Source of the DNA: Octopus sinensis | Lineage: Eukaryota | DNA: 64,000 nt | Assembly: GCF_006345805.1 (NCBI RefSeq) | Contig: NC_043026.1 | Span: 1,488,001 to 1,552,000 of the forward strand | Reading direction: 5' to 3' | Shown here: positions 1 through 57,810 of the stretch, piece after piece | Position numbering within the stretch: the first letter of the stretch is position 1 | How the letters are laid out: the number at the start of each line of letters is the position of its first letter | Position numbers and translations under genes: made by a program | The notes under the pieces: model-generated | Database searches by the model: none | What the model was told of the DNA's origin: nothing | What the model saw: only the letters and a program-made list of their open reading frames with translations

Positions 1-50
1 GTGACCCAACATGGCCACAGTCCAAAGACTAAAACAAGTAAAAGATAAAA
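1..50 (+). repeat. 3' tail of the abundant tRNA-derived SINE family
   Basis: CCCAACATGGCCACAGTC...GACTAAAACAAGTAAAAGATAAAA matches SINE tails at ~12440, 22440, 30420 and 40660. Confidence 0.75.
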
Positions 51-139
51 GATGCTTGAAAATTATGAAGTAAATATCTTCTTCAGATTTGAATATTTTC
101 AGGAAAATAAATGTTGTTTTTGTTCATATTTCATTATAG

Positions 140-2193
140 ATCTGCTTGACATGTCTTCTCAGGTGCAGAAAGACAGACAGAATACCAAAAAACATTTTTT
201 CCGGTGTGCTAACGATTCTGCCAGCTTGTCACCAAGTATGAATCTAACATTAAAGGAAGAGGAAGACAGCTTCAAGATGCCATCATTCAAAATGAAAACA
301 GCTTTAACAGATTATTATAACAAATATAAAGATGAAAATGAAACGATGACAGAGGAAGTTTCAAAAAATTGCAGAAGCAAAAGCCATAATAAAGGTGACC
401 AGACAAAGCAGGAAATAGTTAAAGTACCAAGTATTTTGTCCAAAATTGGACACAAACTAATAATGAAAGAATATGCAAACAATTTGAAAATGCTGAAAAT
501 CAAAAAGAATGAATTTTGTATTTACTTAGAAAGTGAAGGACTAAATACAGAACTTTTTAAGCAAGATTTTAAACACACAATAAACAGATTGTTTAAAACC
601 AATTCTGATGATTCTATTGTTCAGAAAGAAGTTGCCTCTTTTCTTGAACAATGTTTTAACTTATACACAAACGGCAATTCTTTCTTTTACAAGAACATTG
701 CCATGCAAAAGCCATTGGAAAAGTTTCGTCCACTCTCACCGGCTGTGCCCAGAACATTAAATTTCAGTGCTTCAGATAAAGATTCTCCAAACACAATTTC
801 AAATATCATCAGAATCGAAGGTGGAATAGCGACTTATTCACGACATTTAATGACTTTATCTTGTTTCACAACAGACGGTGACTGCAATGTTGTTCATAGT
901 CCTTCTCCAGTCACGGATCTTACCAGAGTTGATAAACAAACTGTTATGGCAACAATCCCATTCAGGAAAAAAATTATCTTTATCAATCCTTCTAGTTGTC
1001 AAATGAAAACTTTTCATTGTGGCTTTAACAAAATTACTTTTGTGAAAAATTGTACCTTTTTAGGTATCAAATTGTTTAGTAAAATAATATACCTCGTAGA
1101 CTGGGTTCATAATACAGTTGAAAGCATATTTAGTCTGAAAGACGACCCTGCAAATATCGCCGTAGGAACAAATGATAGCGTGTTAATAACATTTGCCAAT
1201 ATAAATAGAATTGTTTGTTATAATTTTGAAGGTCAACAGTTATTTCAGTTATATAGCCATTCTCTCACTTCTCCAACTGACCTCACTGTTTATGGCAACT
1301 TTTTTTATGTCCTCCAAGGAAAGATCATTTATAAGATTTCATCACAGAGAGAAATTGCGATAAAAGCTCAATATTTTTCTGTAGGCACCAAAAATATTTT
1401 CTTTTCTGATTATTTCGGTGTTGGACATGTTGTTGAGAGAAATAAAGACTTTTGGCCAAGGTTAACTTGCTCACAGCAGAAACAAACCCCTGTTTTGAAC
1501 AATCAAATTTACATTGATGACCCCTACCATATTAAAAAGATTCTGCCCATGACAAGCTCTTCTGTGTTAGTTACTTATTGGAATCTGAAAGCTATATTAT
1601 TTACTGATAATGGAACAAAAATTTGGAGAAAATCCTTAACTTTCCAGTTTCAACCTACTGACTTTTGTAGATTGGACTCAAGCTCATTTCTTGTTCTGTT
1701 TAAAGAAAACAGGAAAATTCAATATATTACATGCCTTGTTGATTGTCCAGTACTAAACCAAGGCCCCTTGATAGACATCCATGCTCATTACATTCAAATC
1801 TGTCATATAGTATCCAATAAGTTTTTGGCTCTAACCACTGAGGAAAACAAAGAGGTACATATTCTGTTGGTTAAGGAGGATAAAGTTGTTATTGAAAATA
1901 GAATTTCATTAGAACATTGTGATGTCAGCATTGCTGCAACTCCAATCAATTTTGTTGTTGTAATGAAGAAAGAACATAAACTGGTATTTTATTCAATTGA
2001 CTGCAAAGAGCTTTTCGAAAGGCATCTTGATTTCAATGGCTACCCTCATCATATCTACTCCAATAAAATTTACTTCTATGTTATCTACAGTAGAGAGTCA
2101 ATTATGATATATATGGAGAAGTTAAATGGAGGTTGCAACTTCCTTCAGCTACTGTCTCAACTATTGGAGTTGTCAAAGGAACTATTTGTGTAG
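140..2193 (+). CDS. 5' part of a giant terminal exon: uncharacterised multi-beta-propeller (NHL/TolB-like) protein, modules 1-2
   Basis: Stop-free 713-codon frame. Plausible acceptor ttcattatAG at 138-139 (phase 1). Blade-like motifs include PANIAVGTNDSVLITFANINRIVCYNFEG, SPTDLTVYGNFFYV and QPTDFCRLDSSSFLV. Sequence after ~2100 is out-of-frame run-on. Confidence 0.7.
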
Positions 2194-5100
2194 TGGACTG
2201 TAACCTCCACAGGATCCTTTTTTACAATTATCGTGAAGGGTCATATTGTCGTCTACACTCAAGAAGTCCTTATATCAGAAATCTAAATATAAAATATAGT
2301 GCTGTTGATGAAAATGAGAAAATTCTCATCTCTCAAATATATCATCTGCTGAACAGACAGCTGGTTGTGTCTGATATAAATAGCGATTGTTTGTTATATA
2401 TTTCTAAAAAAGGACAGGTTGTGCATACATTCTCTCTGCCATCCTTAGCTACAGATATATGTCGATGGGATAGTAGCCACATGGGAGTGACATTACCACT
2501 TGAGAAAGAATTATGGATTATTGGAAATATATCAAAACGAGTTAGAATTATATCATTAAACCATTCTTATGTAAAGGCCTGCAAACTCAGTGACGGTCGA
2601 ATTATTTGCTTTTGTGATAAACCATATCATTTAGACATTGTATCAGTTCAAAAACACAATGAAGGGGAAGTAATTTCTACAGTCAATATTCCCTTTTTCA
2701 TAAAATCATTAACAATAGAAAATGAATCACTAAATCTATTAATTGTTGCTAAGAAGAATATATTTGTGTACAATACTTCATCAAAAGTAGGATTCAGTCC
2801 CTTACACTCCTCTTTCAAAGCTCAACATTCTCTGTATGGTGGATGTATTGATAAAAAATTCATTTATCTGATCGATGAAAGCCATATGTTTGCTATAAAC
2901 AACCATGATTTAGTTGTGAAAGATTACGTTACAAATAATCAGCTGAATATGCAGCTTGACTTATTAGATGTTTTCTCCAGAAAGATTTGTGTCAGTGAAA
3001 TGTTGACTTCTGCATTGTATCTAGAGGATCTGACAGTTTCCGATAAAGCACAAGAATTTTTGATCCCTCTTTGTTTGGGAGACAAAAAGCCAGTGGCTGC
3101 TGATTGTTCAGTTATTACTGAAAATAACTTAATTGCTGTATACGACAGAAATAATAATAGCATTAAGTTAGTAACTTTTGATGGTCAACTTCTTCACTCA
3201 ATCCAACTGGACGTTCTCGTTCATCATATGTGTCGCTGGAAGTCAAACACACTGGTTATTACAACTGATAGAAACCAACTTTTAACATTAAAGACAGATT
3301 TTCCATTGTCCTTTTCAACTTACAACACAAAAAAATGTTATAATTGTATTGCTTCTTTGTCAAACAATCTATTTGTTTGTGACCATGGTATTGAGAGATT
3401 TGAGAAATATATTCTGTCTGTGATCCATATCAATGAAAGACAGTCAACCGTTGAAATAAAGAAAGAAATAGACTTAAGTGGGATCAAATCCTACAGTGAC
3501 TTCTCACATATTACAGTTATTGCTAATGACATCATTGTTGTCTGTGGGGATGCATTTACTTATTTTCTAAACTCCAATGGAGAATGTTTACATTCATTTA
3601 ATCACCTTTTTCCATATAACTGTATGACAAATGATGGTATTTATGTGTACATTCCTATGTGGAATGCCACCAGTTCAGATACACGTGTTGTCTGTTTGTC
3701 GCAGACCGGTGAATACAAGAAAATATTTTTGAATAAAAAACGTTCTACACACAAATTCTATTTCAACAGTATTAACTGTAATGGTCCAAGGTTTGCTGAA
3801 AATAACGAAACATCTTTATACATTGAAGGCTTGTTCACACTTAATCGAGAAAAATTCCATGTTTGTCGACTACAAACTGACCTCTGTTCTGTTCAGATAA
3901 AAGATATTGACCTCTCTGTTGATGGTGAGACAGTTGTAATTGAAAAATCCAATCCTGGTAATGTTAAAATGTTTCAGAGAAATGGGAGGCTGTTATGCCA
4001 CAGAAATCTTGGAACAACACTCGGTGGTGTGTGCTTCTCAGAAAAATATATCATGGTCACAGCCCCGGACAGAGAAGAAATATTTCAACTGAATCAAGAT
4101 TTGACAATGCATAAGATTTGGCAAAGTCTTGTACCTTACGGTGTAATATGGAGGAAAGTGAAAAACATCTACTGGTGTGCACATATTAACTTGACTGAAT
4201 ATCATGCAATACAGATAGACAACAACAAACTGAATGTTCTGGAAAGTTTGTCGTTATTGAAGTTTGGTTCTATTCTTCATTTCCCTTCCAGTGAAGTTCG
4301 AGCAGATAATAAAAAATTCAGTGATGAACAAAATAAGGAATTGGAAAACAGTGAATCAGGAGGCGCATCAGAGGAAATAATTTACGATGGTAGACTAAAG
4401 GTGAGATGTGGCAATTACATGGCATATAGTATGTCAGGAAGTGATCAAGTAGCAGTGAGGAGTCTGCCTCATAGAACAACGATGTTTTCTCTTCCCTTAA
4501 CTACATTTGGAGAAGAGGAATATGGAATGTACAAATATATTAAGCCAGTTGTATTACAAAACAATACTGTTGTGTTCTTATTTAAAAATACTCTTACAGT
4601 GACCACTACAGAAGGTCACGTAATTCAGCAGAGAAAAATAAATAAAATCCCACAGGACATATGTTGTTGGTCAGCAGAATGTTTTGTAGTTGTCTTTCAT
4701 GAGGAGAAACAATTAATGTTCTTCAAAGAAGATCTGTCTCTTTTAAAAACCATCAACACTAAGGGAAACTACAACATGATTTATAAAAAGAATGAAAATC
4801 AACTGGTGTGTGCATGTGATGTTAAATCATGTGGAATTAACTCCTATGTAGATGTGCTTAACATCAATGATGAAACTTATGATTACAGTCAGAGAATTAT
4901 TATTGAAGACAAAGCTATCTCAGCAATTGGTGTCACATCAAGTGAAGACATTATTGTTATCAAAGATGAGAAAGTTCAATGTGTTGTTTGTTGGTACAGA
5001 GGAGGAGGTGATTTAGTTCGGAGTTTAACACTACCATTACTAAAACTACCATTTCAAGGCATTTCTGAACGGCCACTGACCATACAGGGTGAAAATGTTT

Positions 5101-5282
5101 TCATAGCTGATTTAAACAAAGATATTTATCAAGTTTCTTTATTCAGTGACTGCCAAACTTTACTCAGTTCTGATGATATTGAGGTTCGCTATGTCATGGC
5201 CTTATTTGCTTCAAACAATTTTCTTGTAGTTATTGGAGCTCTTGGAGATAACACTTGCTGTTTCTTTAATTATGAGAGATAA
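2094..5282 (+). CDS. 3' part of the same multi-beta-propeller protein (end of module 2 and modules 3-6), in a shifted frame
   Basis: The frame opens after TAG 2091-2093 and reads NYDIYGEVKWRLQLPS..., then runs ~1,060 codons to TAA 5280-5282. Repeated motifs: TDICRWDSSH, HHMCRWKSNT, GGVCFSEKYI, QDICCWSAEC. Confidence 0.75.
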   Translation, partial: RVNYDIYGEVKWRLQLPSATVSTIGVVKGTICVVDCNLHRILFYNYREGSYCRLHSRSPYIRNLNIKYSAVDENEKILISQIYHLLNRQLVVSDINSDCLLYISKKGQVVHTFSLPSLATDICRWDSSHMGVTLPLEKELWIIGNISKRVRIISLNHSYVKACKLSDGRIICFCDKPYHLDIVSVQKHNEGEVISTVNIPFFIKSLTIENESLNLLIVAKKNIFVYNTSSKVGFSPLHSSFKAQHSLYGGCIDKKFIYLIDESHMFAINNHDLVVKDYVTNNQLNMQLDLLDVFSRKICVSEMLTSALYLEDLTVSDKAQEFLIPLCLGDKKPVAADCSVITENNLIAVYDRNNNSIKLVTFDGQLLHSIQLDVLVHHMCRWKSNTLVITTDRNQLLTLKTDFPLSFSTYNTKKCYNCIASLSNNLFVCDHGIERFEKYILSVIHINERQSTVEIKKEIDLSGIKSYSDFSHITVIANDIIVVCGDAFTYFLNSNGECLHSFNHLFPYNCMTNDGIYVYIPMWNATSSDTRVVCLSQTGEYKKIFLNKKRSTHKFYFNSINCNGPRFAENNETSLYIEGLFTLNREKFHVCRLQTDLCSVQIKDIDLSVDGETVVIEKSNPGNVKMFQRNGRLLCHRNLGTTLGGVCFSEKYIMVTAPDREEIFQLNQDLTMHKIWQSLVPYGVIWRKVKNIYWCAHINLTEYHAIQIDNNKLNVLESLSLLKFGSILHFPSSEVRADNKKFSDEQNKELENSESGGASEEIIYDGRLKVRCGNYMAYSMSGSDQVAVRSLPHRTTMFSLPLTTFGEEEYGMYKYIKPVVLQNNTVVFLFKNTLTVTTTEGHVIQQRKINKIPQDICCWSAECFVVVFHEEKQLMFFKEDLSLLKTINTKGNYNMIYKKNENQLVCACDVKSCGINSYVDVLNINDETYDYSQRIIIEDKAISAIGVTSSEDIIVIKDEKVQCVVCWYRGGGDLVRSLTLPLLKLPFQGISERPLTIQGENVFIADLNKDIYQVSLFSDCQTLLSSDDIEVRYVMALFASNNFLVVIGALGDNTCCFFNYER

Positions 5283-28385: not shown

Positions 28386-29362
28386 ATGTGTGTGAGCATT
28401 TATATGTGTGTGTACTACATACATATAGGTATGTACATATATATATATATATATGTATATACATACATATATATATATATATATATATGTATATACATAC
28501 ATACATATATATATATATATAGTATGTATATACATATATATATGTATGTATATACATACATATATATATATATTGTATGTATGTGTGTGGGCATCCATGT
28601 GTGAGCATTTATGTGTGTGTGTACTATGTATGTATATACATACATATACAGATATATACACAGTCTTCAACTGTTTTCATGGTTTCAGTTACAAGACTGT
28701 GGCCATGCTGGGGCATCGCTGTCAAGGATTCACAGATTTCATCGATTGCCACTTATTTTACTGACCTCAGAACAATCAAACAGGTCATAATCCAAAACAT
28801 AAAAAACACAAACATAACATAAGGGTTTTCCTTTTTCTTTCCTCTTCAGGTGTGTTTTTGCTGTGTCCTGCACTCTACCAAGTCTGCTGTCCACTGACTA
28901 CAATGGCAGTTTATAATTTGTTCCTCAACGCTTCCACCATCACTACCATCACCACTGTTCTCTTACTTACTTCCATCTATACTCCCCCCCCCAATCTTGT
29001 ACCTCAAAAGATCACACACACACACACACACACACATACTCATGCCTCTTGACACCTCACACCCAAGCTCAGTGGGATGAAGTGGGAAGAGAGAGAAAGA
29101 AAGAGAGAGAGAGTAGCAAAGGTATGTCCAGCTCATCTACACTTGACACAAAAGCACAGCACAGACACTCTTTCCCCACCATCCTCACAGCTGACCTCTC
29201 ACTCACATGCACTCTGTTATGCTACAATCATTGCACCCCCCCTCCTAATCTACTAGCCACCAAACAAACCAACCCAGCCCTCCCACCCACACAAAGCCAC
29301 AGGATTTTATAAGACTGTGGTTGATACTACAGTTGCATGCTTGCAAAAATATTGTCAGTTTT

Positions 29363-29404
29363 TCAGGCAGTGGCCGGTTGTGCTCCGGGGATCTTTCCAA
29401 GCAC
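29363..29404 (-). CDS. FLOT2: flotillin-2, terminal coding exon (VLGKIPGAQPATA*)
   Basis: Acceptor ttattttgcAG, phase 0. Continues ...GVDISK from the previous exon. TGA at 29365-29363. Too short for the ORF track. Confidence 0.85.
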   Translation of the reverse strand: MLGKIPGAQPATA

Positions 29405-30039
29405 CTGCAAAATAAATAAAATATATAAATAAATAAAACAGTCATCAAAAGAGAAGTTAGACAGACAGACAGACAGCAAAAAACTTTAAAAAACAGACTA
29501 TCCATTCGCATTTAAATCACATTGTTTTGGTTCAAACTAACCAGACCCAGCCTCTCAAACAGTTACATTGCCAAAATCTTGAAGATAGGATGAATTGTTG
29601 GATTAAGTTAAGTGTCAAGCATCATACAGTGACTGGTGGTGATGACAGTCAGCAGCTCATCCCAAACAGAGTAAAGACACCTGAAATCAGCCCTGTGAGA
29701 TGCAAGCATTTTGGAGTGGTTATCTGCTCTTCAGTCACAGAAACTAGACAGGGTGCACTGCGAGCTGATAAGAGAGATTGTCTTCTGATATTCCTAATCA
29801 GTGCCTCACCATAGATAAATTACGTGCTGGCAGTGCTAAGCAGTGATATGTACAAATACAAGGTTATTGTCAGTTCGAAAAAAGCTTGGGGCATATTTGA
29901 ACCCATAAGAAAGTCATTCACTGTGTTTTGTCATGAAGATAATTTCTTGCAGTAAGAATAATCTGAATGCTGAAGGATAAAAAAGGCAGGAGGAAAATAA
30001 CAACAACAAGACTTGGACTATTTATTAATTAACAATGGT

Positions 30040-30197
30040 GCAGACATGGCTGTATGGTAAGAAGTTTGCTTCTCAACCACAAGGATTCCAGGTTCAGTCC
30101 CACTGTATGACACTTTGGAGCTAGTGTCTTCTAATATGGCCTTGGGCTGACCAAAACCTTGTCAGTGGATTTGGTTGACAGAAAATGAAAGAAGCCC

Positions 30198-30247
<50 letters not shown>

Positions 30248-30460
30248 CATGTCTTTGTGTCTATGTTTGTCCCCCATCACCACTAGACACCCAGTGCTGG
30301 TGTGTCCCCGATAACTTAGCAGTCCGGCATAAGAGATCAGATCAATAGAATAAGTACTAGGCTTAAAAAAAAGTCCTGGCGGGGTCGATTTGTTTGACTT
30401 AAACCCTTCAAGGCAGTGCCCCAGCATGGCTGCAGTCAAATGACTGAAACAAATAAAAGC
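30040..30460 (+). repeat. full-length tRNA-derived SINE with (TG)n
   Basis: Head CATGGCTGTATGGTAAGAAGTTTGCTTC..GGTTCAGTCCC; tail CCCCAGCATGGCTGCAGTCAAATGACTGAAAC. Confidence 0.8.
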
Positions 30461-31901
30461 AAAATGGATACAAGTTGTACTACATCTGGTCACTTGGCAT
30501 GCTAGAAATGACAGTCAACTCTTTAGTGTTATAATCAGTTAATGGTAGGAAATTGGCAGATGAAATGCCTTGTAGTCACTAGTGTAGAGGGGGTGGGGCA
30601 CTTTTGGGTCTGCTGTAGATAATGTGTGTTTTTTGTGGGGTCCAGGGGCAGCAAACAGAAGGGCCACCCAGACAGCACACACTCTAGCTATGCTAGTGCT
30701 TGTATTCCAAGGTCACCTTTGTCTTTCATCCTAAATTACAAGACCAGTTGAATAAAGACTGGCAGAGTCAAAGTAATCAGGCCACACTGTTTAGGAGACA
30801 GCTTTACACACACACATTCACTTTCAGGCCAGATCTCTATTGTGGGAATATCCCCCCCCCCCCGAGTCCTCATCATCATTTTAATGTCCACTTTTCGATG
30901 CTTGCATTGGTATTCACAGACTGCGTTTACTGAGGCAGATCTGCAGCCAGATACCTTTCCTTTCTCTCACCTGTTTCCAAGCAAGGTAATATTTCTCATA
31001 TGGTAAGGTGGTGAGCTGGCAGAATCATTAGCACGCTGGGCAGAATGCTTAGCAACATTTAGTCTGTCTTTAAATTCCAAGTTCAAATGCAGCCAGTAAT
31101 TGACTTTGCTGGTCATCCTTTCGGAATCAATAAATTAAGTACCCATTGAGCACTGAGAATAGGTCGATTACATCAACGTATTCGCTTCTCTGAAATTGCT
31201 GGTGTTGTGCCAAAATTTGAAATCAATATTTCCCCATAACCAGACTTGTTCTCATGAAAGCATGGAAACAAAAAAACATCACTTATATGACAGGGAAGCT
31301 TGTTTACAATTATAACATGGTGTCCAAACAATGAGGCACTAACAACTCTTCAAAAAATTTTTAAATAGGGCAAATTAAGAGAAACTGATGGGAAAAGGAT
31401 TTTTCTGTAAGGGCCTTCACAAAAACTTCCCCTTTCAAATCTGTGTTAATCTGTTTTTTGTCTTCAATAAAATTAATAATTTCTAACTTAAGAAAATTTT
31501 TTTCAAATATTGTGATGATATCAAGAAATGTTTCTTACATATGAGATATATATAAGTCATGTCTTCTATAGTCTAAGGTCGACCAAAGCCTTGTGAGTGG
31601 ATTTGGTAGATGCAAACTGAAAGAAGGCCACCGTGTGTGTGTATATATATTTAGGTCACTTTAAACAACAATTCTGGATTCAATAACACTGTGTATAAAC
31701 TCTATACTTGGAACGACCAATTTTAAATACTGTTGGATTTTACTCATAAGGTATTGGAATATGTGTACTATTCTGCCTAAAAAAAAATGGATCTACAAAT
31801 GCAATATCCCTACATATCTCACATCTATTTTCTTTCCTCCACCTCACTCTCTATTTTATATCTTATCTAAATTAATTATTACTTAATCATCCTCTCACAC
31901 C

Positions 31902-31953
31902 GTCTCTGATGAAGGGATATAATCAATAAATATCCTACAAGCAGCTGTAAGAC
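31902..31953 (+). ncRNA. degenerate minimal type I hammerhead-like motif (probably inactive)
   Basis: Stem I GTCT/AGAC, CTGATGA at 31906-31912, stem II GGGATAT/ATATCCT and a CAGCTG palindrome before GTA. The conserved GAAA reads CAAG. Confidence 0.45.
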
Positions 31954-32015
31954 CTTCTATCTATAAATGTTCTAATATCTACACAGCCTTGGGTTTTTTT
32001 ACCTCATTGCGAAAT

Positions 32016-32071
<56 letters not shown>

Positions 32072-32297
32072 TTTTGTTTTGGGATTTGGCTTGCAAGATT
32101 CTTTATATGAGTTTGTGTGTTGAAGCATATTCTGTTGTGTCTGGGGAGAGTCATTTTCTTTTTGTGCCTTGTAATTTAACACACTCACTGGTAAAATTTC
32201 CACTTATTTCTTATTTATATTTTCCTAAAATGTTCGTTGCGTCTTGCAACCTTTTCAATAGACTATTGAAAATATGTATGTGTGTGTGTGTGTGTAT

Positions 32298-32354
<57 letters not shown>

Positions 32355-32422
32355 CATACATACATACAGATATATACATACATACATACAGATATATACA
32401 TATATATAATATATATTATATA

Positions 32423-32453
<31 letters not shown>

Positions 32454-32540
32454 AAAGGATGAAAAGGAACACACGAGTTGATATATATGAAAAAACAAGT
32501 CAAGATAGAAAATGCTAAAATAATTGTATAAAGAACATTT

Positions 32541-32578
32541 CAGTACCGGTTTCAGTCATTTTGAGACCTTTTCAACTG
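32541..32578 (-). ncRNA. minimal type I hammerhead ribozyme candidate, U3-A8 variant (sense to flotillin pre-mRNA)
   Basis: Minus strand CAG-TTGAAAA-GGTC-tcaaaat-GACT-GAAA-CcgGT-A-CTG, with palindromic stem III ACCGGT. Confidence 0.55.
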
Positions 32579-32731
32579 CAACGATTAAATAATTAAATTT
32601 AGAAAAATTAAAAGAAAAGTTTTTTTAAAAGAATATTTGTATAGTGTTCAAATATAAGTGGCATTCTCCTTGTCTCTGCCTTTCTCTGTCTCTCTTGTTT
32701 AATTTTTCTAAATTTAATTATTTAATTGTTA

Positions 32732-32769
32732 CAGTTGAAAAGGTCTCAAAATGACTGAAACCGGTACTG
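32732..32769 (+). ncRNA. minimal type I hammerhead ribozyme candidate, U3-A8 variant
   Basis: Stem I CAG 32732-34 / CTG 32767-69; core TTGAAAA 32735-41; stem II GGTC/GACT; GAAA 32757-60; ACCGGT palindrome; GTA triplet 32764-66. Confidence 0.55.
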
Positions 32770-32830
32770 AAATGTTCTTTATAAAATTATTTTAGCATTT
32801 TCTATCTTGACTTGTTTTTTCATATATGTA

Positions 32831-32908
<78 letters not shown>

Positions 32909-33310
32909 CAATGGGCTTCTTTCAGTTTCCATCTACCAGATCCACTCACAAGGCTTTGGTTGGCCTGAGGCTATAAAAGAAGACACCTTCCCAAAGTGTC
33001 ATGCAGTGGAACTGATCCTGGAACCATGTGGTTGGGAAGCAAGCTACTTACCACACAGCCATGCCTGCATGTATTCAACATTTAAAGATATTTCCACATA
33101 TGTGAAAACAAAAGCAATAAATACAGAGAAAACGTAGAAAAATAATAGAACAAAGAAACCACAAACTTGAAAATAGAAAATTGATATTTAGATATTTTAT
33201 CAGAAAAATGATAAAATATTTTTAAAAAATAAAACAAGAAAAAATTTTCCCTCAAAATATAAAAAAACAATTTTAAATTGCATAAGAAACTACATAAAAC
33301 AAAATTATAT

Positions 33311-33343
<33 letters not shown>

Positions 33344-33354
33344 ATATAAAATAA

Positions 33355-33532
33355 ACAGAATATATATTTTTATGAGCTACAAATAATTTCCTGTAATGAA
33401 AACATCTCTTTTTTGTGCTTTCACAGAAACGTTAGCCTGAGGATTGGATGAAGGCCACAGATGTGCTAAAAATACTCTCTGAGATGCAGTTATTGCATGA
33501 AACTATTAATAGCTCATAAAAATATATATTGT
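33355..33532. repeat. older, shorter foldback element between (TG)n and (CA)n arrays
   Basis: AATATATATTTTTATGAGCTA...CATCTC pairs imperfectly with GAGATG...TAGCTCATAAAAATATATATT. Confidence 0.55.
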
Positions 33533-33592
33533 GTCTATTAAATAATATCTCTCATCAGATTAACTCTTTTGTTAATCTTATCATTGCTGAAC

Positions 33593-33694
<102 letters not shown>

Positions 33695-35572
33695 TTGTTG
33701 TTTTGTTCATCTATTTTTCCTTGCTAGCAGGAGTTATATAAATACATTATTAAGAATGCATTCTAAACAAACACAGAGAAGTACACACACACACGCACAC
33801 ACCAGGCTTCTTTCAGTTTCTGTCAACCAAATTCATTCATAAAGCTTTGATCAGCCTAAGGCTTGTGGGATTGAACCTCAAACCTAGTGGTTGGGAAGTG
33901 AACTTAATCACATAGTTACACTGGCCCCTACAAGTGTGTATGGGAGTGCACACTTACATTATAACATACTTTAGGTTGGAAACAAAGTCCCCACACATTT
34001 TTGACAGGATCATTTTGAGGGTACTTTTTAAATATTTAAAGCAGGGGTTCTCAAGCATTTTTTTAACCTTTAGATTCCTATTTTACTCAAGGGTGGGGAC
34101 CCTCATAGTCAGTTGATGTCTAAAAACTCCCATTATATTTTCATAACAAAACATTATTAAGAAGAGTGTAAAAAAATTGTTAAAATATTCTGTGTATTGA
34201 AGGAATGGAACCAGTTTATTGCAGATCAATTTTAACAAAAGGCAAGTTGCATCGGCCAGGAAAAAGATGAATTGTTGAACATCAAATCAACCTAGATGAT
34301 GTATTAAACTTTCCCTTCCACCCCAGGTAGCAGGAGATGGTAACCCTAACTACTGCATTGGGCTTACTACCCATGTAAACTGTGCAGAAGACATCCAAGA
34401 ACCAAATAACCAAACGATGGTAGCATTGTATGTTAAAGCTTATCACCCACATGAATTCTGCTGAAAGCATTCGGGGACTAACCAGAGTTAGATAAAAGAT
34501 AAAATCATAAATAACAGAATTTTAATAAAGAAGAATTACACACACAACTGGATTATCTCTCAGTTCGTAATTCTGGGTAGCCTTGTTAGACCCTAATGTT
34601 GGATGCAAAAATTTCCAGTTTGTTTATATTCTATGTAACAGTTAAAAAACAAAGAAAGGAAAAAAGAATAATCTGACAATTTTGTTTCCTTGAAAAGACT
34701 GTGGCAAGTCGAGTTTCTCTTGGAAAATCATGAAGGAAAGAGTTTTCAAATCCTTACTCCATTCTGCTACAGATTTATGTTCTTAATTGCTATCAGAACT
34801 TATCAGAATCACGGATTTCACTCTTAGAAATTAAAATCACCCTTATCATCATCATTTAATGCCTATTTTCCAACAGGCATGGATTGGATGGTTTGGTGGA
34901 AACCAGCAAGCTGGAGCGCTGTCCAAGGTCCAGCTTGGCTTCTATGGCTGGTGGCCCTTCCTAATGCCAACCACTTTACAGAGTGAACTGGATGCTTTTA
35001 CATGGTATTGGCAAGGGCACTTTTATGTAATGCTGGCATAGGGCTCTTGTAGGCTAATCCTCTTCAACAGGGAGAGCAGCATTAACACTTCTGCTGTGGA
35101 GGACAGGTCTTCTTGAGTATGGCAAGGGGCTAGATATCTGGTTTAAAAACCACACTTACAATCATGAGCCAAATACTGGTTTAAAAATCACAGCTGTAGA
35201 AACACTGCCAGATCAGACTGGAGCCTGGTGCAGCCCCTGGCTTCCCAGACCCCGCTCGAACTGTCCAACCCGTGCTAGTGCAGAAAATGGACATTAAACG
35301 ATGATGATGACTTATGGATTATATGTTGACTGTCTATTTTGCTAGATTCTTCCATATTTTCCTTTGAATTCTGATTTGCTGCTTGACAACAGGAAATTGG
35401 TATTCATTTTTTATCTGTGGTAAAAAGTTCCAGAAGAATCCACAAGGAAAGAATTCTCTAAAAACTCAAAGCAATCAGTTATCACATCAAACATTGCCGT
35501 ACACTGTTTTGCATAGTGGAATCGTGTTTTCATGAATATACTAACGAGATTTACACTGAAATTTACATTTAA

Positions 35573-35780
35573 CCCTTTAGCAATCAATTTACTCTGTTAA
35601 ATGTATTGCTTATTTATTCACATTGTTTAGAATTAGTCATTTCATAGTTTTGAGCCTTCAATGATGTGATTGTTTAGTTTTAGAATGACTTTCTAGGGTA
35701 AGTGTGAGAGACCAGATCTGGCTAGTTTTGAACAGGTAGAATATTTGGGGCCAGATATGGCCAGTTTGAATGCTAAAGGA
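35573..35780. mobile_element. piggyBac-type MITE (related copies at ~23130-23300 and ~48405-48615)
   Basis: TTAA on both sides (35569-72 and 35781-84). Termini CCCTTTAGCA / TGCTAAAGGA. Confidence 0.7.
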
Positions 35781-37039
35781 TTAAATATGACTAGGTTATC
35801 TCAGGTGGTTCTAGGCAGGTTGGTAACATAAGCCAAAAACAAATTCTCAGGTTGTTTTGGGACAGGTTGGTAATGAAAGGGTGAAACAAAGTAGTACATT
35901 CGACTACCACCCACATGAACTCTGTTGAAAACACCCAAGGAGCAACCAGACAGTGAGGATATGAGGATCAGACCCACCACCTTAGTTCACCTAAGTGAAC
36001 TCAAGTGCTAAAAGCACACAAGGGCCATCAATATGGTTGGCATGTTAAACCAGGCAGTGCATAGGCCTATCCTCCAAGTAAACTCTGCTGAAAGCCTCCA
36101 GGGACCAACCATGGGTTAAACCAGGCAGTGAATTAGCCCTATCAATTAAGTAAACTCTACTAATGATATGTTGTAGTGTGAGGGGCTGACACCTCTCTCT
36201 CTCTTTCTCTCCTACCGGCTTAAGATTAGACTAATTCTCTGATGTTCAGATGTATTGACTCCAGATGCATTCTTTACAAATACTCTCTCTCCTCTGTTGC
36301 CCCAACAGTAACTGGCACTCCATCAGTTAAAATGATGAGGGCTCCAGTTGATCTGCTCAACAGAACAGCCTGCTCATGAAATTAATGTGCAAGTGGCTGA
36401 GTACTCCACAAACACAAGGACCCTTAACACAGGGAGATTCAGCATGACACAGTATGTGACATAGCTGGTCCCTTTGAAATACATGTACTCCACATTTTCG
36501 TCAGCTGAGTGGACTGGAGCAATAAAGTGAAATAAAGGGTCTGGCTGAAGAACACAATGCACCACCTTACAATCAAGAGCCAAATACTCCTAACCACTAA
36601 GCCACGTGCCTTCACGACAGTAGATAAAAGAACATGAGAATATCTCTGAGTCTTCTACTGCCACCAAAATGGCCTCTGTTCTTACCATTTCAGTTTATCC
36701 AAGTAGTCGAACCACAGTAAAAGCTGCACCAAATCCATTGCTCAACAAAAGAATCAAATCTACTGCAACTAGTGTTAGATAGAAACTGCTGCACACTGCA
36801 ACTATTGCAATCATCTAGGGGTGTGACAAAAAGGTGCACCAAACAAACTTACCACCTGGCTACAGGGTCAAAAGACCGTTTACAACACAATGTTAAGACT
36901 TTTGAGCAAGAAGCGGAATTCGGTCTGATAAAAGTCCGAATTTCTGTACAAGGAAGGAATTAAAGAACATGTTAAACATTTCACTTAGAATTTAAGAAAT
37001 TATAACAAAGCAACAACAACAACAACAATAATAATAATA

Positions 37040-38740
37040 ATCCTTTCTACTAAAGGCACAAAGCCTGAAATTTGTGTGGAGGGGGTAAGTCAATCACACT
37101 GACCCCAGTACTTCACTGGTACTTAATTTATCAACTTCAAATGGATGAAAGGCAAAGTTGGCCTCAATGGAATTTGAACTCAGAACATAGCAAGGGCAAA
37201 ATGCTTGGCTAACGATTGTGCCAGCTCACTGCCTTACTATATTATTATTATTATTATTATTACTATAAATAAAAATAATAATGGTTTCAAATTTTGGCAC
37301 ACAATCATCAAGTTTTAGGGAACAGGGTAAGTTGGTTACATCGACCCCAGGGCTCAACTGGTACTTATTTTATCGACCCTGAAACGATGAAAGGCAAAGT
37401 CAACCCTTGAAGAATATGAAGATGGACAAAATGCCGTCAATCATTTTGCTAACAATTCTGCCTTCATCAACAATAATGATTTCAAATTTTGGCACAAGGC
37501 CAGCAATTTCAGAGGAGGGGTAAGTCAATAACTTCGACCCTAATGTGCAATTCATATATATTTAATCGATCCTGAAAGGATGAAAGGTAAAGTCGATACT
37601 GGCAGAATGTAGCGAAAGGGAGACATATTGTTGTGAAGGACCACCAGGAAGGGAAATGAATTCTAATTGATGCAGAAGTCCAAATGTATGCAATGAAATG
37701 GAGAAATTATCAAATGATATTCTTTTACTTGTTTCAGTCATTTGACTGAAGCCATGCTGGAGCACCGCCTTGAAGGGTTTTAGTCGAACAAATCAATTTT
37801 TTAAGCCTAGTATTTATTATAGGAGTCTCTTTTGTTGAACCACTACATTACGGGGATATAAACACACCAACATCAGTTGTCAAGCGATGCTGGTGGAGAT
37901 AAACACAGGCACAAAGACACGCACACACATATATATGTGTGCAATGGGCTTCTCTCAATTTCCATCTACCAAATCCACTCAATGGTGAAAAGAAAAAAAT
38001 TAGAGAAAAAAAATTTCATTAAATAACTGCATAAATATATTGTATTCTTTTCACTCAACTTCTGAAAAAAATTTAACAATGCCAGGAGATATTTTGTCCC
38101 CCATAACTTAGCAGTTTGGCAAAAGAGAACAACAAAATAAGAACTGCAGTTCTATGAAGGAAAAAAGTAAATAAGCCATGAATTCCTAGCCAAACGATTC
38201 TCTCCCTTGCCATAGAGACGACTGAATCAGATTAGAAATTACTTTTATCCAAGTATTAATACCTGGAAATGAAAACAATCAGGATTTAGGGATCAGAACC
38301 AGTAACTGTCCCTTTAATACTTTGGGGATGATAAGAACTATGCAGACAAATACATAGCCAAAACATCCGGACCATACAAACACACAGCATACACAATATA
38401 TTTCTCTTTTCACTATAGACACATGGCAGAAATTTTAGAGAAAGGCTTAAGTTGATTACATCACCCCCAGTACTCAACCGGTACTTACTTCATTGACTCC
38501 AAATGGATGAAAGGCAAAGTCGACCTTTGTCTACAACTTTATCTGGCATGCTAAGAATTCTGCCAGCTCACACCTTCACCAATGAAATAATGATTTCAAA
38601 TTTTTGGCACAAAGACAGCATTTTGAGGGGGGAGGGTAAACCAATTAATCAACCCTGAAAGGATGAAAGGTAAAGTCAACCTTGGCAGAATTTGAACTCA
38701 GAACATAAAGCCAGTGTGCTTACGATTCTGCCAGCTCAAG
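37040..38740 (-). repeat. cluster of about five same-orientation Nin/Deu-core SINE copies plus other SINE pieces
   Basis: GACCCC(C)AG..GGTACTTA..ATCGACCCTGAAAGGATGAAAGG(C/T)AAAGT recurs at ~37100, 37340, 37560, 38460 and 38650. Confidence 0.7.
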
Positions 38741-38817
38741 CTATCACCAATTCAATAATAATAAGAACCGTTTTCTGCATCAGCACAAAGCAAACGATTT
38801 GGGGAAGGGAATAGTCT

Positions 38818-39290
38818 GTAGTGACGCTATCCAACAGCGCGCGCGCGCAACGCCCTCTCGCGCATACGCGAAGACCGGAAGAGAGAATTTGCTGTCGTGG
38901 CATTAGTTGAATGGCAGGGAAAAAGCGAGCTTTAACAAAGAGGCAAGGGAGCATAAAACGTTGACCACCAGCGTCCAGTAGGCAGTGACTTGAGGCACAG
39001 CAAACGAAGGCACCAGACGTGTAATTCTCTCTCTCTCCGGATTTGATATAGCAGCAGTCAGCAGAAGACTTTCAACCTGACATTTGTTGCAGACCACATC
39101 ATCTTCTCCCTCCGGACGCCATTTTGACCAGTTCTGGTTTTAGCGGCTGAACATTGTAAAATCTTACAAGCGATAAAGTTTCAGCTCTGACACATCCATA
39201 CCAAGCGGAACCAGATATACCACTTATTTCTTACCGTTATAAGAGAATAAAGTATATATATTTTTTACGTTTGCGTCTTGTTGTTTCTGA
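38818..39290. other. CpG-rich island in a flotillin intron (solo-LTR-like or promoter-like)
   Basis: (CG)5 run, CCGGAAG, CGCCATTTT, GCATAAAA and AATAAA. Begins TGTAGTG. No TSD found. Confidence 0.4.
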
Positions 39291-40342
39291 CTGGTAGAAT
39301 CTGGAAACAAAAGGAAAGGAAATTGAGTTGCACCCAAGTTGCACCCCAAAAGTGCAAAGAAGCAACTAGTGACCTTTTACAAGTCAATTATATGACCATG
39401 GCAGGATTTGATCTCTGGCTGAAAACAGCAGCAATATCATATGATGTCTTTTATATGAATAGCAACAAGAATACTAACATTAACTACTAGGAACCTCTAC
39501 ATGGTTGCTAAACCAGCTAGAAATAGCAGCAAATCTCTCTCAAATTACCCCTTACTATTTTGTATATGTATGAATCAATGAGAGAGACTTTGACTTTGTA
39601 GATAGACTTATCTATGAGTCAACAAAGAAGCTTTGACAATCTCTCGGCCACAAATCAGAACCCAGGTTTGTCAACATGAATGCATTGAACAAGGTAGTTC
39701 CTGACATGTATAAAAAACAACTGGGAAAGTCAAAGTTGGAATCCCTTTGCTCATAAATCTACTTGATGAAGGCCAGCTAAGAGGTAAATAGCAACACTTT
39801 TAACCACATCATAGTTATCATCAACAGGACACACAACGATGACAATCTAGAGCCACGAGTACAAACATGACATTAACTTTTAATATCCCACCAAAAAAAA
39901 AAAAGAAAGAAAAAACAAGAGCGATAGAGGAAGTATTAATACCTAAAGGCAGAACAATCACCACATCAAAGTGGATGTTGCATTAGAACACACAAATACT
40001 GTGATATTTGCTGAGAGAGAAAACTCTCATATGGTTATTTCATAGCTAACATCAATACTGCTCAGACTAAACTAGTCAAAGGCCCAGTCCTGTAACGATT
40101 TTCATACAGAACAGAAAAAAAATGATAAAAGGGATTAGAGTGTTCTCCTTTTATAGTAGAAAGGGGCCAACTGCCTTCAAAATAAAGGTAAACAAAATTA
40201 GTTGTAGGATTCTTGTGATATTATACATTTCAGGGCTGACTGGCCAATGCAGTCCCATGTCTTACATGAAGTCAATAGTCAAAACAGTCTTAACCACAAA
40301 AAGCTATCGAAGTAATCATAAAAATTTTTTTTTTTTAATTAG

Positions 40343-40700
40343 CAGGCATGGCTGTGTGGTAAGAAGCTTGCTTCTCAATCACATGGTTCCAGGTTCAATC
40401 CCACAGTTCAGCACCTCACGTAAGCTAAAACCTTGTGAGTGGATTTGGTCAATGGAAACTGAAAGAAACCTGTTTATGTGTGTGTGTATCTGTGTATGTG
40501 TCTGTTCCCCACCAGTGCTTGACAAATGGTGTTGGTGTGTTTACATTCCCATAACTTAGCAGTTAAAACAAGACTGATTGAATAAGTATCAGGCTTTAAA
40601 AAAATTCTTGAAAGTATTGGGGTTTGATTCATTCAAAAAAAGTGTTTTTCAAGGTGGTGCCCCAACATGGCCACAGTCTAACGACTGAAACAAATATAAC
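40343..40700 (+). repeat. tRNA-derived SINE
   Basis: CAGGCATGGCTGTGTGGTAAGAAGCTTGCTTC..GGTTCAATCCC ... CCCAACATGGCCACAGTCTAACGACTGAAAC. Confidence 0.8.
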
Positions 40701-40775
40701 AAACAAAAACAAGATGAAAAAGGGACACAGCAAAAGCACCAAGTTGCATCCAGTTCTGTCACCATGACGACTTAC

Positions 40776-55328: not shown

Positions 55329-55414
55329 AATATCCACGCACAAATCTTCAAAAAGATAAAGAAAATAATGAGAGGCAAAATAGGAAAGCAAAAGAGAAAA
55401 AGGGAAATTCTTAC

Positions 55415-55749
55415 CTTTGACCTTCAGCTAGCATTTCAACTTTGAAAGCTTGAGCTTCGGCAGGGCGTTTCACGGTACCAATCAGTTCCTTCTCCTTCCT
55501 GATCACCTCCTTCTCCTCCACATCGATCTGTTTACGACGCTCGACAACATCAATCTCAATCTCTTCAGTTCTGATCTTCTGTTTCTCTTTGGCACCTTGA
55601 AGTTCATACGCCAGCTCTGCCTCGGCTTTCTTTGTGTTCACTTCCATGTCAAAAGCAGCCTTCTGCATCTGGAACAATCTTGATGCATCGGCAACTTTAG
55701 CATCAGCAGCATATTTAGCATCCATTCCAACTTTTTCACATTCTGCTTC
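55415..55749 (-). CDS. FLOT2: flotillin-2 exon (EAECEKVGMDAKYAADAKVADA...AEGQR)
   Basis: 335 nt, phase 0-2, ctgcAG / GTAAGA. KAEAELAYELQGAKEKQKIRTEEIEI matches flotillin-2. Confidence 0.96.
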
Positions 55750-55783
55750 CTGCAGATAGACAACAAGATATATATATATATAG

Positions 55784-56987: not shown

Positions 56988-57810
56988 CATCCGCCAGTTA
57001 TTCTTAGGAACTAAGTCAGCAATGTAGGTAGAAGAATATCTTCAATTTCTTCGGATGAGGCAGCATTCCGTAATGCTGCACCTTATTACGATAGCGCATT
57101 AAAGAATAGTGGATTCTCTGAGAAGATCCAGTATAACCAACTTAATGCTAGTAGTAATGCTACACGTAGAACTAGTACTAGGAAAGTTTTGTGGTTCAAC
57201 CCAGCTTTCAAACATAGGTAGGGAATTCTTGAAATTAGTCTCTAGGCATTTTCAACCTGATCATAAATTCTATAGAATATTTAATAGAAGAACCCTTAAG
57301 ATCAGCTATTCTTGCTGCAGAAACTTCGCCTCTTTCGTTAACCAACACAACAGTAGATTAATTGCTAATAAGCATAGTGCCGATCCTCTTAAAAAATGTA
57401 ATTGCAAAGATGGATCCTCCTGTCCATTGGAAGGGAAATGTGTGGAAAAAGGAATCGTATATAGAGCCAAGGTGCAGATAGAAGGCTCACGCCTTCTGAT
57501 TTTATTCGCATAAAAATTCCTTTAGATATTCAGATAATAGGATGAAGACCAGCCTGGCGAAATATGTCTGGGAATTAAAAGAAAAGAAAGCCCGACCTTT
57601 TAACGTGTCATGGAGTATTTTAGATAGAGAGGCACCATACAGGTACGATGCGCATAAGAGAAATTTCAAGGGCGACTTATGTTTGCTGGAAAAATATTAT
57701 ATTTTATTCCAAGACATTAATTCTTTAAATCAAAGAAGCAAACTCTTGAATTCATGCAGACACGCAGCTAAATTTAAAATGTCGACTATCAATATCCCAT
57801 ATGGATAGTG
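56988..57810 (+). mobile_element. Penelope-like element 3' fragment (RT thumb, linker, GIY-YIG endonuclease remnant)
   Basis: [63 protein letters not shown] and LNQRS..CRH. Confidence 0.85.

What the first reader, a model, noticed from the sequence alone, without database searches (positions are those of the whole stretch)
32483..32827. Young foldback element with a U3-A8 variant hammerhead on each strand, inside the last flotillin intron
Seen: 130-bp arms with only 3 mismatches. Each contains CAG-TTGAAAA-GGTC-N7-GACT-GAAA-CCGGT-A-CTG. Known: the hammerhead core CUGANGA has a C3-G8 pair, and TTGAAAA is exactly the compensated U3-A8 form. A palindromic stem III (ACCGGT) is the hallmark of minimal, dimer-dependent hammerheads in Penelope-like element termini. 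Inference: a non-coding, (TA)n-targeted, palindromic retroelement whose transcript from either strand carries one ribozyme plus its antisense. In the flotillin pre-mRNA the antisense arm is transcribed first and could mask the sense ribozyme (32541-32578), making the insertion self-neutralising. Canonical-core searches would miss it. Stem I is short and stem II closes with G-U, so activity is unproven.
Basis: partly seen in the sequence, partly recalled or inferred. Interest (0 to 1): 0.7.

Follow-up and report, generated by a model that had tools for sequence, protein, structure and literature searches.

The report
Penelope retrotransposon stump with mirrored end
The mirror-image repeat is the cut-short end of a protein-coding jumping gene (a Penelope-like retrotransposon, likely Neptune type) joined head-to-head to a copy of itself, a layout already described in animals; its hammerhead ribozyme motif is a published variant and is predicted to be weak and blocked in this copy.

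Summary
In detail: 130-bp arms, 3 mismatches, a U3-A8 hammerhead motif on each strand, inside the last coding intron of a flotillin-2-like gene. It is not a non-coding palindromic element. It is the 5'-truncated 3' end (pLTR) of an RT + GIY-YIG Penelope-like retrotransposon, likely Neptune type. The family has at least 1,849 exact core copies. Head-to-head pairs range from 245 to 4,812 bp, and the longer ones contain ORF. The hammerhead fold is supported by compensatory changes: five stem II types in this genome, and positions 3/8 paired in 24 of 24 distinct motifs from related elements. U3-A8 in pLTRs, opposite-strand pairs, inverted pLTRs, tails and (TA)n targeting are all in print (PMC4209133, PMC8557442, PMC3846280, PMC11167929). 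The G-U closing pair is a minority form (about 7%) predicted to weaken folding. Antisense masking is predicted, but it follows from the geometry and looks incidental. One small lead: U3 plus A17 may form an inhibitory pair. Cleavage is untested. The scan reported this layout before, in other families of this genome.

The parts
32453..32701 (-). Long arm: last ~250 nt of the retrotransposon (3' pLTR), sense on the minus strand, including the tail
   Evidence: Colinear with family copy L026 over 261 nt at 95.8%. Closest fetched copy is 98.0% identical over 248 nt. L026, L029 and L024 continue upstream into GIY-YIG coding sequence.
32453..32482 (-). PLE 'tail' (30-34 nt), on this end only. In tandem copies it runs on into the ORF start.
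   Evidence: The name 'tail' is from PMC8557442, PMC3846280 and PMC11167929.
32698..32827 (+). Short inverted arm (inverted, more truncated pLTR) without tail. It overlaps the long arm by 4 nt at the junction (32698-32701).
32541..32578 (-). Minimal type I hammerhead motif, sense in the flotillin pre-mRNA: U3-A8 core, 4-bp stem II closed by G10.1-U11.1, palindromic stem III segment, GUA triplet
   Evidence: Cross-family covariation.
32732..32769 (+). Second copy of the hammerhead motif, in the inverted arm
32612..32697 (-). 85-nt spacer between the arms: upstream pLTR/3'-UTR sequence of the element, not a separate loop
   Evidence: Colinear with uninterrupted family copies
32400..32452 (.). 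(TA)n-rich target microsatellite, left flank
   Evidence: 38 of 40 ends in sampled inverted pairs are followed by (TA)n.
32828..32874 (.). (TA)n-rich target microsatellite, right flank
29405..40775 (-). Host intron: last coding intron of a flotillin-2-like gene (11.4 kb; inferred)

Best explanation
The foldback is a 5'-truncated insertion of a protein-coding Penelope-like retrotransposon (likely Neptune type), consisting of the element's 3' end joined head-to-head to a shorter inverted copy of the same end, and its hammerhead motif is predicted to be inactive at this site. Likely mechanism: the element's GIY-YIG nuclease cut a (TA)n tract. Its reverse transcriptase then started cDNA on each cut end, at two fixed sites about 30-34 nt apart in the RNA. 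Both copies stopped early and were joined through a 4-nt overlap. That would leave the tail on one end only. The ribozyme belongs to the parent element, where it would work as a dimer between tandem pLTRs, probably with protein help. In the flotillin pre-mRNA it has no dimer partner, carries a weakening G-U pair and would be sequestered in a 130-bp duplex. Shown here: family membership, ORF linkage, geometry, tail rule and covariation. Inferred: two-ended priming, dimer cleavage and inactivity at this site.
For: ORF linkage. 20 of 20 loci fetched by the endonuclease sequence (20 of 41 matches taken; 2 of them were first found through the arm) carry the arm downstream in the same sense. All 20 loci fetched by the RT 5' part (20 of 40 matches) also hold an arm. 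P0001 has an RT domain (PF00078, E 3e-9) followed by a CX2-5CxxC linker and GIY-YIG. In 5 tandem copies the tail reads on into the ORF start. Geometry. Among the first 100 of 1,849 exact matches (control 0), the 26 neighbour gaps under 8 kb are 22 head-to-head, 3 direct and 1 tail-to-tail, with head-to-head spacings of 245-4,812 bp. In 20 regions covering 21 of those 22 pairs, the tail was scored on exactly one end in 19 (in 1 of the 19 the other end was not located). ORF sequence lies in 11 of 12 regions spaced 1.1 kb or more and in 0 of 8 under 600 bp. Hammerhead. Sister U3-A8 families keep a paired stem II with different sequence (GGTC/GACC, GATG/CATC, GCAT/ATGC, GAGG/CCTC, GGGG/CCCC) and a palindromic stem III (ACCGGT, ACTAGT, ACGCGT): 167 matches against 9 control and 2,445 against 16. 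With positions 3 and 8 left free, 43 hits fell in 25 of 76 related PLE loci, all on the sense strand (0 antisense, 0 reversed), and 24 of 24 distinct motifs pair 3 with 8: C-G 13, U-A 9, U-G 1, A-U 1. Two family copies co-fold as a double hammerhead (-27.1 kcal/mol). This copy. Stem II probability is 0.21-0.26 against 0.97 for the family form, and about 1e-18 or less in the whole foldback. Literature: PMC4209133, PMC8557442, PMC3846280, PMC11167929.
Against: No cleavage or RNA-end data exist here. Two-ended priming is not obligatory: 16 of the 20 endonuclease-selected loci show no inverted end upstream, and L046 has a tail on both arms. The Neptune assignment rests on domain order and a by-eye comparison with a published alignment, not on a tree with named references; Nematis shares the linker. 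The monomer fold is no more stable than shuffles (z from -0.8 to +0.3). The within-family constancy of the core is uninformative, because the family is young and matches were limited to 5 substitutions. The covariation scans required stems and a palindrome, the sister-family loci were picked by eye, and many metagenome loci share one record prefix, so the rows are not independent. The folding is equilibrium folding and ignores co-transcriptional kinetics and splicing.
Confidence: 0.9

Rival explanations
1. A non-autonomous, non-coding palindromic retroelement that replicates as a foldback unit and is selected to neutralise its own ribozyme in host transcripts.
For: Short foldbacks without ORF exist: 8 of 8 sampled pairs under 600 bp lack ORF. 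Masking is predicted. 44 of 100 listed motifs sit in head-to-head pairs.
Against: Inversion junctions and arm lengths differ from copy to copy among 18 short foldbacks and grade continuously into ORF-bearing copies. The 3' UTR is about 550-750 nt long, so any short truncation lacks ORF. Inverted arms also occur in Naiads, which lack canonical hammerheads.
Confidence: 0.05
2. The same PLE stump, but with the inverted arm made by self-priming or template switching on one cDNA or an antisense template (the model in PMC3846280), and the tail left by nuclease resolution (PMC8557442), not by priming from both ends.
For: Published models. 4-nt overlap at the junction. Many insertions lack an inverted arm.
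Against: The tail can sit on the ORF-bearing arm or on the short arm, yet is nearly always on exactly one. This fits two independent initiation events at the two RT start sites mapped in vitro on both DNA strands (PMC11167929).
Confidence: 0.35
3. A MITE or foldback DNA transposon whose TIRs resemble a hammerhead by chance.
For: Near-perfect inverted arms in TA-rich flanks.
Against: The ends are asymmetric (tail on one side), many copies have a single arm, the linked ORF is RT + GIY-YIG, and the motif covaries across families and is sense-strand only.
Confidence: 0.01
4. The insertion has been co-opted and regulates flotillin splicing or RNA editing through its 130-bp duplex.
For: A very stable duplex in the pre-mRNA, about 3 kb from the last acceptor.
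Against: The copy is young (98% to its closest sibling), one of hundreds, in an intron full of repeats. Its three arm mismatches look like private drift.
Confidence: 0.04

Closest known systems
EN+ Penelope-like elements, Neptune type, with inverted pLTR and tail (PMC8557442: passages and one supplement part seen; PMC3846280: passages seen)
   Same: RT, then CX2-5CxxC linker, then C-terminal GIY-YIG; 5' truncation; partial tandems; inverted truncated copy at the 5' end; 30-40-nt tail on one end; microsatellite targeting.
   Different: A family I did not find named. Here the ORF's first ATG lies about 25 nt after the tail, whereas the tail is inside the ORF in PAc and in Adineta Pen2a. Both end sites finish in ATAT, which matches the (TA)n target; PAc initiation was reported as non-homologous to the cut DNA.
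Minimal hammerheads of PLE pLTRs, including the U3-A8 form of Schistosoma mansoni Cercyon (PMC4209133: main text parts 1-2 of 4, supplement part 1 of 3 and a term search seen)
   Same: U3-A8 core (the identical UUGAAAA in S. mansoni family 4), G10.1-C11.1 in the family form, palindromic stem III, opposite-strand pairs 100-700 bp apart, mostly truncated single copies.
   Different: [quoted passage not shown]
PAc (Poseidon of the green anole; PMC11167929, parts 1-2 of 4 seen)
   Same: Two fixed RT start sites bounding the tail, AT-rich targets, hammerhead in the pLTR that needed protein to cleave and was dispensable for insertion in vitro.
   Different: Penelope/Poseidon clade (no linker zinc finger), C3-G8 core.
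Metazoan non-LTR retrozymes (bioRxiv 10.64898/2026.07.22.740005, part 1 of 5 seen; its supplements are closed)
   Same: Type I hammerhead related to PLE pLTRs.
   Different: Retrozymes are non-coding tandem repeats. This family is coding, and its short copies are inverted or single, not tandem arrays.

Membership tests
EN+ Penelope-like element | Single ORF with RT and C-terminal GIY-YIG endonuclease linked to the repeat | tested here: met
   Met by the family; the window copy is truncated and holds no ORF.
EN+ Penelope-like element | pLTRs formed by partial tandems, with the upstream pLTR reading into the ORF | tested here: met
   L053, L054, L063, L066, L070
EN+ Penelope-like element | Inverted 5'-truncated copy and a 30-40-nt tail on one end | tested here: met
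   Window copy, and 19 of 20 sampled regions; exception L046
EN+ Penelope-like element | CCHH motif in the endonuclease | tested here: met
   CxxC inside GIY-YIG plus two His in the L024 and L029 translations; the first His is Arg in P0001
Neptune clade | CX2-5CxxC linker between RT and EN | tested here: met
   P0001 residue 580 onward; 85 of 121 stored proteins match the pattern; spacing resembles the Neptune rows more than the Nematis rows in the published alignment, by eye
Neptune clade | RT phylogeny groups with named Neptune elements | not tested
   No named reference PLE proteins were returned by the tools
Minimal type I hammerhead of PLEs | Core boxes with a Watson-Crick 3-8 pair | tested here: met
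   U3-A8 in 83 of 83 fetched copies; 3-8 paired in 24 of 24 distinct related motifs
Minimal type I hammerhead of PLEs | Stem II closed by G10.1-C11.1, with covariation | tested here: met
   Met for the family (96 of 100 listed) and across sister families. The window copy itself has G-U (132 exact copies of that form).
Minimal type I hammerhead of PLEs | Palindromic 15.2-16.2 segment allowing a dimer | tested here: met
   Palindrome kept in three sequence forms; dimer co-fold
Minimal type I hammerhead of PLEs | [quoted passage not shown] | tested here: not met
   Absent in this family and its sisters; present in most metagenome motifs
Minimal type I hammerhead of PLEs | Self-cleavage | not testable with these tools
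   Needs a bench assay or raw RNA reads
Non-LTR retrozyme | Non-coding tandem repeats, each unit with a hammerhead | tested here: not met
   3 direct neighbours against 22 head-to-head among 26 close gaps; the family is coding
MITE / foldback DNA transposon | Symmetric fixed-length TIRs and a transposase partner | tested here: not met
   Variable arms, one-sided tail, RT partner

The most novel reading that the evidence does not exclude
This family and at least three sister families combine U3-A8 with A17, so U3 can pair with the cleavage-site A and extend stem I (predicted probability 0.71 in the family form). That would be a natural version of the inhibitory C3-G17 trap (PMC3884650): a hammerhead locked off by default and opened only by dimerisation or by the element's own protein. 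Other U3-A8 families use C17 or U17 (0 of 9 metagenome U3-A8 motifs have A17), which gives natural controls.
Probability: 0.2. Interest if true: 0.45.

Novelty: new member of a known kind. Interest (0 to 1): 0.16.

Why it matters
As it stands it is ordinary: one of hundreds of truncated, inverted Penelope-like insertions in this genome. It has modest value as material. The family is young, has near-intact ORFs (one stop-free frame of 784 aa) and offers hundreds of natural junctions for testing how PLEs make head-to-head insertions with one tail. U3-A8 hammerheads are abundant here (about 1,850 in this family and at least 2,445 in others), so C3-G8-only surveys undercount them. If the U3-A17 lock is real, it would offer a concrete reason why some PLE hammerheads need protein to cleave.

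Tried and rejected
Rfam scan: only sub-threshold Hammerhead_HH9 hits plus microsatellite noise. Pfam did not recognise the flotillin exons or the GIY-YIG of P0001, so the gene was identified by PDB sequence matches. Sequencing runs: no RNA holder listed. Four contig runs laid on 29000-34500 showed the family in three coded organism labels, with the C form in the majority at 32756. They gave no RNA ends, no splice joint to the upstream exon (outside the stretch laid) and no empty-site joint among the rows shown. The intron and the presence/absence of the insertion therefore remain unverified by reads. Monomer fold energy is no better than shuffles. Stem I probabilities for the window copies were mis-indexed and were redone. 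A test of whether every insertion has a short inverted end failed: 16 of 20 have none. No coding sequence was found upstream of the second foldback family in 11 loci. Papers not held: Lunse et al. 2017 on PLE hammerhead dimers and Przybilski and Hammann 2007 on 3-8 exchanges. They may hold U3-A8 or A17 activity data. One search was a wrong paper, not used. Searches for U3-A8/U3-A17 wording found only PMC4209133 and PMC3884650, one review or nothing. A search for twin priming with Penelope gave one unrelated review. A hammerhead + Penelope + octopus search gave no description of this family in the 4 of 5 papers listed.

Full report
Observation. The arms are as described: 32483-32612 and 32698-32827, 130 nt, 3 mismatches, folding at -192 kcal/mol with z = -30.8. 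The hammerhead-like motif lies at 32541-32578 on the minus strand and 32732-32769 on the plus strand. Rfam scores it far below threshold. The host gene is flotillin-2-like on the minus strand. After the exon at 40919-40776, 12 residues of the 428-residue reference remain. The only one of 7 motif hits with an AG acceptor encodes 13 residues and a stop at 29404-29363. The element is therefore in the last coding intron, by sequence inference only.

What it belongs to. A genome search returned 94 matches from 40 scored candidates of 1,932. Three such copies continue into a GIY-YIG endonuclease frame. I then searched from the protein side. All 20 fetched endonuclease loci (of 41 matches; 2 first found through the arm) carry the arm 550-750 nt downstream in the same sense. 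All 20 loci fetched by the RT 5' part (of 40 matches) also carry it. One natural copy gives a stop-free 720-aa frame with an RT domain, a CX2-5CxxC linker and GIY-YIG. 632 homologues were found at E <= 1e-30, and many of the 120 listed carry both PF00078 and PF01541. Domain order and linker spacing fit the Neptune type (by eye, no tree). In five tandem copies the arm and its extension read on into the ORF start, so the arm is the pLTR. The window copy is the last ~250 nt of the element, sense on the minus strand, joined through a 4-nt overlap to a 130-nt inverted copy.

Geometry across the genome. A 33-nt core pattern has 1,849 exact matches, control 0. In the first 100, close neighbours are 22 head-to-head, 3 direct and 1 tail-to-tail; head-to-head spacings run from 245 to 4,812 bp, and 56 motifs have no such matching partner. 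I fetched 20 regions covering 21 of the 22 pairs. The tail was scored on exactly one end in 19 (one of these by default, its other end not located). The 20th has a tandem junction. 38 of 40 ends run into (TA)n. ORF sequence is present in 11 of 12 regions of 1.1 kb or more and in 0 of 8 under 600 bp. Junction positions differ among the 18 short foldbacks examined. The window's element is thus the short end of a continuum of truncation, not a separate palindromic element. Against a universal two-ended rule, 16 of 20 endonuclease-selected loci have no inverted end and one has two tails.

Is it a hammerhead? Within the family the core is nearly invariant (83 copies), but this is uninformative in a young family. 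Across families the signal is clear. Patterns fixing only the U3-A8 boxes, G10.1-C11.1 and the cleavage triplet found 167 matches against 9 control with GUA and 2,445 against 16 with GUC/GUU. These show five different paired stem II sequences and three different stem III palindromes. 22 of 33 motifs in 30 fetched loci (20 picked by eye) pair at all three unconstrained stem II positions. Two sister families adjoin PLE coding sequence. In 76 metagenome loci of related PLEs, a scan leaving positions 3 and 8 free gave 43 hits in 25 loci, all sense, none in two controls. All 24 distinct motifs pair 3 with 8. These rows are not independent. Two family copies co-fold into the double-hammerhead form.

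This copy. The family closes stem II with G-C (96 of 100 listed). The G-U form has 132 exact copies and is on both arms, so it likely came from the template. It lowers the predicted stem II probability from 0.97 to 0.21-0.26. In the full foldback transcript stem II is essentially absent. The antisense arm comes first on either strand, which is a geometric consequence of head-to-head joining. The copy is 98.0% identical to its closest fetched sibling, so 'young' is fair.

Mechanism. Likely: nuclease cut in (TA)n; cDNA started from both cut ends at the two fixed sites that bound the tail; early termination; microhomology join. Two start sites, cleavage and extension of both strands, a predicted dimer and protein-assisted hammerhead cleavage were reported for PAc (PMC11167929). 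Applying them to explain the one-tail rule is my inference. Self-priming (PMC3846280) with nuclease resolution (PMC8557442) remains a rival. Both end sites finish in ATAT, which could pair with the target.

Comparison with what is known. PMC4209133 reports U3-A8 hammerheads in PLE pLTRs (about 1,300 hits in S. mansoni), opposite-strand pairs 100-700 bp apart, no monomer cleavage and low dimer cleavage. Its supplement has the same UUGAAAA core. Inverted truncated copies, one-sided tails and (TA)n bias are described in PMC8557442 and PMC3846280. PMC6765202 (passages) reviews the dimer model. Earlier notes of this scan, consulted after my reading was fixed, report the same layout in other families of this genome; a sequence look-up found no note on this family.

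Novelty and verdict. A new member of a known kind; interest 0.16. The one lead is the U3 plus A17 combination, predicted to pair over the cleavage site, like the C3-G17 trap discussed in PMC3884650 (passages). I did not find it in print. Two relevant papers were not available, and bioRxiv supplements are closed. It could equally be neutral or a weak pair of no consequence.

Noticed in passing
window 33345-33560: A second, older foldback 500 bp away (64-nt arms, 80% complementary; 523 candidates, best 73-84% identity). Family copies show a C3-G8 core, a very long predicted stem II and a GUA site, resembling the Hydra magnipapillata row in the PMC4209133 supplement. No coding sequence upstream in 11 loci.
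   Followed up: partly
G000:C1:28192959-28195156 and C1:104185172-104187387: Tandem arrays of a U3-A8 hammerhead (GGGG/CCCC stem II, ACGCGT palindrome, GUC site) at about 360-bp spacing, retrozyme-like.
   Followed up: no
L084-L112 (G000 sister families): At least three further U3-A8/A17 families with different stems I and II. Two adjoin PLE coding sequence (L095, L101, L107) and two occur as short inverted pairs (L096, L100).
   Followed up: partly
L016, L027, L111: A canonical C3-G8 minimal hammerhead family with an extra nucleotide after A9 and an ACGT palindrome, lying by chance in the flanks.
   Followed up: no
window 57500-57805 (+): A 102-aa frame resembling the C-terminus of a PLE GIY-YIG endonuclease of another family (resemblance recalled, not searched), upstream of the 55414-55770 flotillin exon. 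The hammerhead scan found no motif for it in the window.
   Followed up: no
window 49-5279 (+): Two long overlapping open frames (714 and 1,062 aa) that look like beta-propeller or NHL-type repeats (label recalled, not searched).
   Followed up: no
L155, L164, L176, L184, L185: Metagenome contigs with related PLEs carrying several different hammerheads per locus, mixing C3-G8 and U3-A8 cores; one U3-G8 and one A3-U8 motif also occur.
   Followed up: no
P0030, P0041, P0051, P0069, P0101, P0110, P0118: Homologues labelled as proteins of bivalve gill symbionts; likely host PLE DNA in bacterial bins (inference).
   Followed up: no
L024, L026, L029 3' UTR: The element's 3' UTR between ORF and pLTR carries variable (GAA)n/(GAT)n tracts, which explains the spread of ORF-to-arm distances.
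   Followed up: no
L055:2600-3258: A complex insertion with three arms in alternating orientation, two meeting tail-to-tail across a short (TA)n.
   Followed up: no
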